Virus record (IMG/VR): IMGVR_UViG_3300043726_000004
Location: 1 to 64,000 of that record
Length of the DNA stretch: 64,000 nucleotides
Source of the DNA: a virus
Lineage: Duplodnaviria; Caudoviricetes
Direction: 5' to 3' (one strand)
This document shows positions 17,411-17,485 of this stretch, piece by piece. Numbering within the stretch: the first letter of the stretch is position 1; the number at the start of each line of letters is the position of its first letter. A program made the translations under genes and the position numbers. Below the pieces are notes generated by a model. That model made no database searches. It was not told where the DNA came from and saw only the letters and a list, made by a program, of their open reading frames with translations.

Positions 17411-17485
17411 TGGCAGCAAGGTTGGATGCGGGTTTTTCCTACTCCTTCTCGCGTCCGTGGGGTTCGATTCCCCACGCTGCCACCG
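17411..17485 (+). ncRNA. tRNA-like element 1 (acceptor stem and T-arm, no D-arm) with anti-SD loop
   Basis: TGGCAGC/GCTGCCA stem, GTGGGG-TTCGATT-CCCCAC T-arm, GGATGCGGG/CTCGCGTCC stem closing the loop TTTTTCCTACTCCTT; ends ACCG. Confidence 0.7.

What the first reader, a model, noticed from the sequence alone, without database searches (positions are those of the whole stretch)
17411..17485. tRNA mimic in the array carries a perfect 17-nt antisense to a phage ribosome-binding site
Seen: 17436-17452 TTCCTACTCCTTCTCGC is the exact reverse complement of 871-887 GCGAGAAGGAGTAGGAA, which spans the SD to the first base of the ATG of gene 887-1165. Twelve of these bases lie in the 15-nt loop that replaces the anticodon loop. 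Shorter 10-11 nt matches cover the RBSs of genes 1627 (1611-1621), 3504 (3488-3497) and 4079 (4061-4071). Inference: a tRNA-scaffolded antisense RNA that shuts off a class of early genes sharing the AGGAGTAG RBS, or the homologous genes of a rival phage. The anti-SD core inflates chance matches, but the match extends well beyond the core.
Basis: partly seen in the sequence, partly recalled or inferred. Interest (0 to 1): 0.85.

Follow-up and report, generated by a model that had tools for sequence, protein, structure and literature searches.

The report
tRNA-shaped antisense RNA in VIPR array
A soil phage carries a small tRNA-shaped RNA gene, with no anticodon, whose exposed loop is the exact complement of the ribosome-binding sites of a handful of its own genes; it sits not among tRNA genes but inside the guide-RNA array of a CRISPR-like VIPR system, and probably switches those genes off, though this has not been tested.

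Summary
The sequence observation is confirmed. 17436-17452 is the exact reverse complement of 871-887, and this exceeds what anti-SD content explains: no 17-nt match occurred in 2000 core-fixed shuffles. The element (17411-17485) is a real, conserved, anticodon-less tRNA-like RNA. Four diverged lineages keep the acceptor and T stems through compensatory changes. The 10-nt loop core UCCUACUCCU is invariant. Its complement AGGAGUAGGA sits at several RBSs in this phage and at three orthologous RBSs in a sister lineage. It is absent from the gene strand in 903 kb of 80 related loci that lack the element.

Two corrections. The full 17-nt match is lineage-specific; only 10-13 nt are conserved. And "the array" is not a tRNA array, since the whole 102-kb record has no tRNA. 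It is a 3.2-kb GGY-NN pentamer array next to a Vipr (RAMP) gene, that is, a VIPR guide-RNA array of the kind described in 2026 preprints.

Best reading (about 0.45): a tRNA-scaffolded RNA, probably cut out by RNase P and RNase Z, that pairs with a small set of RBSs and blocks translation. Main rival: a processing punctuation mark for the guide array. No expression data exist.

The parts
17411..17485 (+). Whole tRNA-like element: U(-1), 6-bp acceptor stem, GGU linker, 9-bp stem with 15-nt loop, 6-bp T stem with loop UUCGAUU, A73 and CCG.
   Evidence: Fold. Covariance model R1 scores 91 bits here and 79-88 bits in three other lineages. 98% of cells are paired, with 4 pairs showing compensatory change.
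17412..17417 (+). Acceptor stem 5' strand (GGCAGC). It pairs with 17476-17481. The conserved U at 17411 is the expected -1 base of an RNase P site.
   Evidence: The sixth pair reads C-G, U-A and G-C in three lineages and is a G-G mismatch in the fourth (L048).
17418..17423 (+). Linker AAGGUU with an invariant GU preceded by a mostly conserved G. It probably stands in for D-loop G18-G19 at the tRNA elbow. There is no D stem.
   Evidence: Invariant columns in A2. The elbow role is inferred from tRNA knowledge.
17424..17456 (+). Central (anticodon-arm position) hairpin: stem 17424-17432 with 17448-17456, loop 17433-17447 UUUUUCCUACUCCUU.
   Evidence: The stem sequence differs in every lineage (6-9 bp) while the loop core UCCUACUCCU is invariant.
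17436..17452 (+). 17-nt stretch exactly complementary to 871-887.
17457..17475 (+). T arm: 6-bp stem GUGGGG/CCCCAC and canonical loop UUCGAUU.
   Evidence: Three of the six pairs covary.
17476..17485 (+). Acceptor 3' strand GCUGCC, discriminator A (17482), then CCG. Two sister lineages encode CCA here.
871..887 (+). Predicted main target: SD through the A of the AUG of ORF 887-1165 (92 aa, no known family).
   Evidence: No family in Pfam or PHROGs.
1611..1621 (+). 11-nt complement covering the RBS of ORF 1627-2223.
3488..3497 (+). 10-nt complement covering the RBS of ORF 3504-3779 (weak PC4-like match).
   Evidence: The motif is kept in the ortholog L063:703 although both flanks have diverged.
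4061..4071 (+). 11-nt complement covering the RBS of ORF 4079-4657 (DUF6011).
   Evidence: The ortholog L063:1627 keeps AGGAGTAGGA plus a second GAGTAGGA.
15204..16031 (+). Context: vipr gene (RAMP/Cas7-like protein of a VIPR system).
   Evidence: A profile of the family hits PDB 36pp 'SUSP1 Vipr protein' at E 2.2e-12. The AF2 model matches Csm3 and type VII Cas7.
16030..19210 (+). Context: VIPR vrRNA array. A G/T-rich untranslated stretch built of GGY-NN pentamers in phase-coherent blocks; the element lies inside it.
   Evidence: GC skew +0.25. GGT autocorrelation peaks only at multiples of 5. Pentamer profile G 69%, G 56%, T 49%, N, N. Conserved in relatives.

Best explanation
17411-17485 is a gene for a small, stable, tRNA-shaped RNA that cannot decode. 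It has an acceptor stem, a T arm and an elbow-forming GGU linker, but its anticodon arm is replaced by a 6-9-bp stem presenting a 15-18-nt pyrimidine loop.

It is transcribed as part of the long untranslated VIPR guide-RNA array downstream of the vipr gene (inferred). Host RNase P (5' side, after the conserved U-1) and 3' tRNA-processing enzymes probably cut it out (inferred from its anatomy).

Its invariant loop core UCCUACUCCU pairs with the extended Shine-Dalgarno motif AGGAGUAGGA. In this clade that motif marks the ribosome-binding sites of a small group of genes: in the window 887, 1627, 3504 and 4079, plus one RBS in the left extension (L054:186) and one at 99373 near the right end of the record. 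Pairing covers the SD up to the start codon, so it should block 30S binding and shut off translation (inferred).

This could serve as a temporal switch. It could also act against superinfecting close relatives, which share the motif.
For: - Structure: four lineages were found (window, L013/L050, L016, L048). 98% of acceptor and T-stem cells are paired, with 4 compensatory pairs and 8 changed cells, and only 1 of 500 shuffles reaches the observed value.
- tRNA-end features: U at -1, A73 and ACC are conserved, and two lineages encode ACCA.
- Loop: the central stem sequence differs in all four lineages, yet the loop core is invariant.
- Targets in this phage: 8 sites of at least 10 nt against 1.9 expected (P about 0.005). 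The 17-nt match was unmatched in 2000 controls. The 887 RBS is the best site on the + strand of the 102-kb record.
- Loop-only duplexes score -13 to -19 kcal/mol on the seven listed window RBSs (the weakest, 1627, is -13.2) against -6 to -13 on six control RBSs of the same phage. Across the three lineages targets score -13 to -21 and controls -6 to -16.
- Target conservation: in the L013 lineage the orthologs of 887, 3504 and 4079 all keep AGGAGTAGGA, while spacers changed and, for 3504, both flanks changed.
- L016 has a 12-nt complement to its own loop in a promoter-proximal 5'UTR. It includes a G opposite the C that is specific to the L016 loop.
- Co-occurrence: AGGAGTAGG occurs 6 times on the gene strand of this 102-kb record and 0 times in 903 kb of 80 related Vipr loci. 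Those loci also lack any tRNA or convincing tRNA-like element.
Against: - There is no evidence of expression, processing or repression.
- A pyrimidine-rich loop is inherently SD-complementary, so part of the signal is generic.
- The 7 extra paired bases in this phage are not matched by compensating changes in the L013 lineage, whose pairing is 10-11 nt. Five of those bases are locked in the stem.
- Much of the upstream region of 887 and 4079 is conserved between lineages anyway, so motif retention there is weak evidence.
- A more distant DUF6011 homolog (L066) has an ordinary AGGAGG RBS, and it is not known whether that phage has the element.
- The motif also occurs once inside the array (18789-18798), where it simply forms part of a GGY-NN tract.
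- The host and its RNA chaperones are unknown.
Confidence: 0.45

Rival explanations
1. Processing punctuation only. The tRNA-like elements are cleavage signals that recruit RNase P and RNase Z to cut the long VIPR array transcript into guide RNAs. They would be a natural counterpart of engineered tRNA-gRNA arrays and of the hammerhead ribozymes that intersperse some VIPR arrays. On this reading the loop-RBS complementarity has no regulatory role.
For: - Both tRNA-like elements (17411-17485 and 18559-18672) lie where the pentamer phase changes (blocks end at 17420 and 18569).
- A degenerate in-phase tract runs up to the 5' end of the element (read from the sequence).
- U at -1 and ACCA ends fit RNase P substrates.
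- Hammerhead-interspersed VIPR arrays are described in bioRxiv 10.64898/2026.04.26.720920.
- Elements are gained and lost between lineages: 2 in the window, 3 in L013, 4 in L016.
Against: - There are only two elements for about 19 phase blocks, so most guides must be released some other way.
- None of 80 other loci of the same Vipr family has a tRNA or a convincing tRNA-like element.
- A mere cleavage signal needs no invariant 10-nt loop, nor a genome-wide excess of its complement at RBSs.
Confidence: 0.25
2. The conserved loop binds something other than mRNA. For example, it could mimic the pyrimidine-rich 3' end of 16S rRNA (CUCCUU) and bind a ribosomal or phage protein, or act as a decoy for a nuclease. 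The RBS motif would then be conserved for an independent reason, such as a protein-binding site.
For: The loop shares CUCCUU with the bacterial anti-SD (own knowledge). GUAGGA tends to be duplicated near the starts at 2224-2245 and 99355-99369 and in L063 and L051, which could equally mark a protein-binding site.
Against: It needs two independent constraints that happen to be exact complements over 10 nt, and that co-occur only in this clade. No candidate binding protein was identified.
Confidence: 0.15
3. The element is the structured 3' tail (handle) of the preceding vrRNA, on which Vipr filament assembly starts. It would replace the pseudoknot tail of SUSP1-type vrRNAs.
For: vrRNAs end in a conserved structured tail. 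The conserved block 17333-17406 directly precedes the element.
Against: Only two of the units have it, so the other units must use another tail. The tract upstream is a poor GGY array (25% of pentamers in phase). Acceptor-end features point to tRNA-processing enzymes, which would sever it from the guide.
Confidence: 0.07
4. It is a decaying tRNA pseudogene or an attP-type copy of a host tRNA 3' half, and the match to 871-887 is a chance or recombination scar.
For: It has a canonical T loop and an acceptor stem. A distant relative (L003) has 23 tRNAs downstream of its RNR gene.
Against: Compensatory changes maintain the stems in four lineages. The loop is invariant. The 24-nt T-arm and acceptor half has no exact match in 185,579 species' genomes or in IMG/VR.
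Confidence: 0.03

Closest known systems
VIPR systems (Vipr protein plus GGY/NN vrRNA arrays; bioRxiv 10.64898/2026.04.26.720920, 10.64898/2026.04.26.720927, 10.64898/2026.10.15.759431)
   Same: This is the genomic setting. A Vipr/RAMP homolog (15204-16031) is followed by a long untranslated array of GGY-NN pentamers. Arrays interspersed with another self-processing RNA, the hammerhead ribozyme, are described.
   Different: The main texts of the three preprints never mention tRNA or RNase P (their supplements were not read). The element has no GGY repeats and would act by contiguous pairing with RNA, not by gapped pairing with DNA.
Trans-acting sRNAs whose C/U-rich loops pair with Shine-Dalgarno sequences (for example RsaE/RoxS of Firmicutes; own knowledge)
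   Same: An exposed pyrimidine loop is complementary to the SD regions of several mRNAs, and the predicted outcome is a block of translation initiation.
   Different: Those sRNAs are plain hairpin RNAs with Rho-independent terminators, encoded by cells. Here the loop is mounted on a tRNA-like scaffold, is phage-encoded, and the seed extends into a clade-specific GUAGGA extension.
mascRNA and the MALAT1 3' end (Rfam RF01684); engineered tRNA scaffolds and polycistronic tRNA-gRNA arrays (own knowledge)
   Same: A tRNA-like fold embedded in a long noncoding transcript, expected to be released by RNase P and RNase Z. The anticodon arm is replaced by a payload. It is used to punctuate guide-RNA arrays.
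   Different: mascRNA is eukaryotic. The Rfam match here is 18.1 bits against a gathering score of 42.5, so this is not a member. The engineered systems are artificial.
Stable RNAs 'species 1 and 2' (rnaC, rnaD) in the phage T4 tRNA cluster, and other anticodon-less tRNA-like modules of phage ncRNAs (own knowledge; scan notes)
   Same: Phage-encoded, non-decoding RNAs with tRNA-like ends and unknown function.
   Different: Those sit among real tRNA genes, whereas this phage has none. No conserved loop complementary to RBSs has been reported for them, to my knowledge.
YrlA-type bacterial Y RNAs (PMC4201824)
   Same: A tRNA-mimicking module (T arm and acceptor-like stem), also found in phages.
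   Different: No Rfam match was found even at E up to 10 in 15800-19400. There is no Ro-binding stem. Whether an rsr gene is present was not examined.

Membership tests
Canonical tRNA | Cloverleaf with a D arm and a 5-bp anticodon stem carrying a 7-nt loop; recognised by tRNA finders | tested here: not met
   ARAGORN finds 0 genes in the window and in the whole 101,818-bp record. The Rfam tRNA model gives no match. The fold shows no D stem and a 15-nt loop.
Canonical tRNA | Acceptor stem stacked on a T arm (12 bp in all) with a GTTCRANYC T loop and an NCCA end | tested here: met
   6 + 6 bp, loop UUCGAUU, A73 followed by CC(G/A). Covariation in four lineages.
tmRNA | tRNA-like domain plus an mRNA-like tag reading frame and pseudoknots | tested here: not met
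   ARAGORN run with -m finds none. The element is only 75 nt. The beta_tmRNA match is 12.4 bits against a gathering score of 84.
mascRNA-menRNA (RF01684) | Score at or above the Rfam gathering threshold | tested here: not met
   18.1 bits against 42.5, E 3.6.
VIPR system (context of the element) | Vipr protein (ancestral RAMP) encoded next to the array | tested here: met
   The profile of 15204-16031 and its homologs hits the PDB chain 'SUSP1 Vipr protein' at E 2.2e-12. The model's fold matches Csm3/Cas7.
VIPR system (context of the element) | vrRNAs made of alternating GGY and NN (5-nt period) | tested here: met
   The same signal is seen in relatives and next to 45 of 80 distant Vipr homologs.
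VIPR system (context of the element) | Guide RNAs expressed, bound by Vipr, and silencing DNA targets | not testable with these tools
   No RNA runs hold the locus. Guide targets were not decoded.
Trans-acting RBS-occluding sRNA | Accessible single-stranded seed complementary to target RBSs beyond chance | tested here: met
Trans-acting RBS-occluding sRNA | Seed and target sites conserved or co-varying in relatives | tested here: inconclusive
   The 10-nt core is conserved on both sides and co-occurs only in this clade. The flanks do not co-vary between the window and L013 lineages. One possible compensatory pair is seen in L016.
Trans-acting RBS-occluding sRNA | Discrete transcript; repression of targets relieved and restored by compensatory mutation | not testable with these tools
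   Needs wet-lab work or metatranscriptomes.

The most novel reading that the evidence does not exclude
A phage VIPR locus carries two kinds of programmable RNA in one transcript. One kind is the gapped-code guides that silence DNA. The other is a tRNA-scaffolded, RNase P/Z-released antisense RNA that silences translation of a defined regulon through an extended Shine-Dalgarno 'address' (AGGAGUAGGA). This would let the phage switch off its own first genes and those of superinfecting kin. It would be the first natural tRNA-scaffold antisense RNA, and the first natural tRNA-punctuated guide array.
Probability: 0.3. Interest if true: 0.8.

Novelty: new variant of a known kind. Interest (0 to 1): 0.62.

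Why it matters
If the loop really acts on the RBSs, this would be a natural version of two devices that engineers invented independently: the tRNA scaffold for stabilising a small RNA payload, and tRNA-punctuated guide arrays. It would also show that a phage can give a subset of its genes a private extension of the Shine-Dalgarno sequence that a single small RNA can address. In addition, it adds a feature to the newly described VIPR systems that their first papers do not mention in the main text, namely non-guide RNAs embedded in the array. The claim is directly testable with a reporter and compensatory mutations.

Tried and rejected
- No RNA holder is listed for 16030-19300.
- Nucleotide search of GenBank phages with 16000-19400 found no match.
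- IMG/VR search with the 24-nt T-arm and acceptor half found no match. A loop plus T-loop pattern in IMG/VR gave 29 hits, essentially all ordinary tRNAs; one (L037) was unclear and scored only 13.7 bits with R1.
- Two genome-contig scans found nothing, so there is no prophage copy and no host tRNA with the same 3' half. The attP idea was dropped.
- A single-protein search of IMG/VR with the 275-aa protein, and an alignment search with DUF6011, found no relatives.
- RNR-based relatives L002 and L003 lack the element.
- Model R1 found no further homologs in 19 held sources.
- Several encoding contigs could not be fetched because the sample file was too large. The 6-kb L013-lineage left-end contig and the L016-lineage left end were therefore not seen.
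- Before the VIPR identification I considered other explanations for the G/T-rich stretch: a CsrB-like sponge, a TRAP-like RNA, G-quadruplexes, an R-loop origin, a Chi array, or Rho evasion. The Vipr match explains it instead.
- The + strand of the stretch folds no better than dinucleotide shuffles (z about 0), so it is not a hairpin array.
- Gap lengths between lineages are only mildly enriched for multiples of 5; this is inconclusive.
- Six literature searches for a tRNA-like antisense RNA or 5-nt periodicity in phages found nothing specific. The seventh found the VIPR preprints.

Full report
**1. The observation**

The window is the first 64 kb of a 101,818-bp IMG/VR virus record. Positions 17436-17452 (TTCCTACTCCTTCTCGC) are the exact reverse complement of 871-887 (GCGAGAAGGAGTAGGAA). 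The latter runs from upstream of the Shine-Dalgarno sequence to the A of the ATG of ORF 887-1165. The match is exactly 17 nt.

The shorter matches at 1611-1621, 3488-3497 and 4061-4071 are also real. Others lie at 99354-99369 and, on a contig that extends the record leftwards, at L054:177, where the RBS reads GAAGGAGTAGGAATG (13 nt).

A control kept the anti-SD core CTCCT fixed and shuffled the other loop bases. It gave a mean of 1.9 sites of at least 10 nt against 8 observed. Only 0.45% of 2000 controls reached 8, and none reached 17 nt. In a sliding duplex-energy scan of the whole record, the 887 RBS scores -31.9 kcal/mol. The next-best site on the + strand scores -23.5, and the + strand background is -6.0 with sd 3.3.

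**2. The element**

RNAfold gives an acceptor helix, a 9-bp stem closing a 15-nt loop, and a T arm with the canonical loop UUCGAUU (-38 kcal/mol, z -3.2). There is no D arm and no 7-nt anticodon loop. ARAGORN and Rfam call nothing here, nor anywhere else in the record.

Relatives were reached through the neighbouring 275-aa protein and a structured DNA pattern. Four lineages carry the element:
- the window;
- L013 (also L014, L015, L017, L049 and L050);
- L016;
- L048.

Across the four lineages:
- The T stem reads GUGGGG/CCCCAC, GCGAGG/CCUCGC, GGAAGG/CCUUCC and GCAGGG/CCCUGC.
- The sixth acceptor pair reads C-G, U-A and G-C, and is a G-G mismatch in L048.
- 98% of cells are paired, and 4 pairs show compensatory change.
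- Every lineage has a U at -1, the base I recall bacterial RNase P prefers (own knowledge), a GGU in the linker (a likely stand-in for D-loop G18-G19), and A73 followed by CC. Two lineages encode ACCA.
- The central stem has a different sequence in each lineage (6-9 bp), yet the loop core UCCUACUCCU never changes.

This is the signature of a structured RNA whose loop acts through its sequence.

**3. The other side of the pairing**

The complement AGGAGUAGGA is a recurrent RBS motif in this phage. AGGAGTAGG occurs 6 times on the gene strand of the record. Five of these copies lie at four RBSs (887, 3504, 4079 and a tandem pair at 99373), and one lies inside the array. The RBS of 1627 carries a shorter 11-nt match, and L054:186 in the left extension a 13-nt match.

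In the L013 lineage I recovered contigs with the orthologs of three motif genes, from the same soil samples as the element contigs:
- 887h reads gcgaaAGGAGTAGGAtaggaATG.
- 3504h reads ctAAGGAGTAGGAAcaacacaacATG, with both flanks diverged from the window.
- 4079h reads AGGAGTAGGAcGAGTAGGAtATG.

The 10-nt core is thus conserved on both sides, but the extra 7 nt of the window match are not. The L013 loop continues AACCGC where the window has UCUCGC, and its RBS flank does not follow.

In L016 the loop reads CUCCUACUCCUU. A 12-nt complement, AAGGAGTAGGAG, lies in the 5'UTR behind a strong promoter. The G at its end sits opposite the C that is specific to the L016 loop.

Loop-only duplex energies for the seven listed window RBSs are -13.2 (1627) to -19.1 kcal/mol. 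Six control RBSs of the same phage give -5.9 to -12.7. Over all three lineages targets span -13 to -21 and controls -6 to -16.

I also fetched 80 further loci carrying the same protein family at 42-55% identity, 903 kb in all. None has a tRNA or a convincing tRNA-like element, and AGGAGTAGG occurs 0 times on their gene strand. Element and motif therefore co-occur only in this clade.

**4. What 'the array' is**

The element lies in a 3.2-kb untranslated stretch (about 16030-19210) with GC skew +0.25 and negative AT skew. A second such stretch lies at 25120-26110. Enriched words are GGTATGGT and GGTAAGGT.

The autocorrelation of GGT is near zero except at lags 5, 10, 15 and so on, up to the 30 nt examined. 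The pentamer profile is G 69%, G 56%, T 49%, N, N, in phase-coherent blocks of about 55-250 nt. The signal is limited to these two stretches of the record. It is present in all close relatives, and next to 45 of the 80 distant homologs, always on the gene strand.

A profile of the neighbouring protein hits the PDB chain 'SUSP1 Vipr protein' at E 2.2e-12. Its AF2 model matches Csm3 and type VII Cas7 RAMPs.

This is a VIPR system: a Vipr protein plus vrRNAs of alternating GGY and NN that guide DNA silencing by a gapped code. It is described in bioRxiv 10.64898/2026.04.26.720920, 10.64898/2026.04.26.720927 and 10.64898/2026.10.15.759431. So the array is a guide-RNA array, not a tRNA array.

Those papers describe hammerhead-interspersed arrays. 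Their main texts do not contain 'tRNA' or 'RNase P'. I did not read their supplements.

**5. Mechanism**

Shown:
- a conserved tRNA-like fold;
- an invariant exposed loop;
- its complement at a clade-specific set of RBSs;
- its embedding in a VIPR array without a promoter or terminator of its own.

Inferred:
- co-transcription with the array;
- excision by RNase P and 3' tRNA-processing enzymes;
- pairing with SD-to-AUG regions;
- a block of initiation.

The phage's own RBS is the best match. A purely anti-rival role is therefore unlikely unless timing protects the phage itself. One plausible reading combines a temporal shut-off of the phage's own motif genes with exclusion of superinfecting kin.

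The main rival is that the element is only a cleavage signal for guide maturation. Both tRNA-like elements sit at pentamer phase breaks. However, two elements for about 19 blocks, their absence from 80 sister loci, and the invariant loop all argue that punctuation is at most part of the story.

The remaining readings have less support. These are another loop ligand, a vrRNA tail, and a pseudogene or attP. The last is contradicted by the covariation and by the absence of any matching host tRNA.

**6. Verdict**

Its interpretation is partly supported by comparative evidence, and its context is corrected. The VIPR locus itself is an already described kind. The tRNA-scaffolded RNA with an anti-RBS loop inside it was not found described in seven literature searches. 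I rate it a new variant of known kinds: phage tRNA mimics and SD-pairing sRNAs. Everything about function still needs an experiment.

Noticed in passing
window 15204-19210: Complete VIPR locus: a vipr (RAMP) gene followed by about 3.2 kb of GGY-NN pentamer guide array in about 19 phase-coherent blocks. Its guides were not decoded, so what it targets is unknown.
   Followed up: partly
window 25120-26110: Second G/T-rich, 5-nt-periodic stretch (GC skew +0.36) with no vipr gene beside it, ending at a strong sigma-70-like promoter (about 26125-26165). It looks like a second, detached vrRNA array.
   Followed up: partly
window 18559-18672 (homologs L013:3123-3221, L016:5151-5296): A second, unrelated tRNA-like RNA of about 110 nt in the same array. 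It has an acceptor stem, a T arm (GGTTCAATTCC), a long central stem with a tip of variable size, and a conserved GGUAUAAAG bulge. It ends ACCG here and ACCA in the relatives. Several pairs covary.
   Followed up: partly
L013:1539-1653; L016:1713-1807 and 3010-3104: Further tRNA-like (acceptor plus T arm) elements in the sister arrays that have no counterpart in the window. Such modules are gained and lost between lineages.
   Followed up: no
window 17719-17964: A genuine small ORF (81 aa, with C-x-E-H and C-P-E-C motifs, zinc-ribbon-like) embedded in the middle of the guide array. This stretch is among the best conserved with L013 (80% nucleotide identity). It could be the accessory (vap) gene of this VIPR system.
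   Followed up: partly
window 17333-17406: A 74-nt block just upstream of the element that is conserved even in the distant L016 lineage (GTTGGC..TGGTGCCGTACGTTGC..). It may be a conserved guide or a tail, and no clear structure was found.
   Followed up: partly
window 2210-2245; G000 99354-99369; L063:1608-1625; L051 upstream of 628: The GUAGG(A) part of the RBS motif tends to be duplicated in tandem just upstream of start codons, for example GGTAGGGGTAGGGGTAGGAC before the GTG at 2246. This would give several landing sites for the loop, or mark a protein-binding site.
   Followed up: partly
L054:1-2114: A Logan contig identical to the left end of the window extends it by 2.1 kb with five more small genes. 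The IMG/VR record is therefore truncated on the left and does not close on its right end.
   Followed up: partly
L003 (IMGVR_UViG_3300005683_000050): A 150-kb phage whose RNR is 61% identical carries 23 canonical tRNA genes around and mostly downstream of its RNR gene. In this phage the region downstream of the RNR gene holds the VIPR locus and no tRNA.
   Followed up: no
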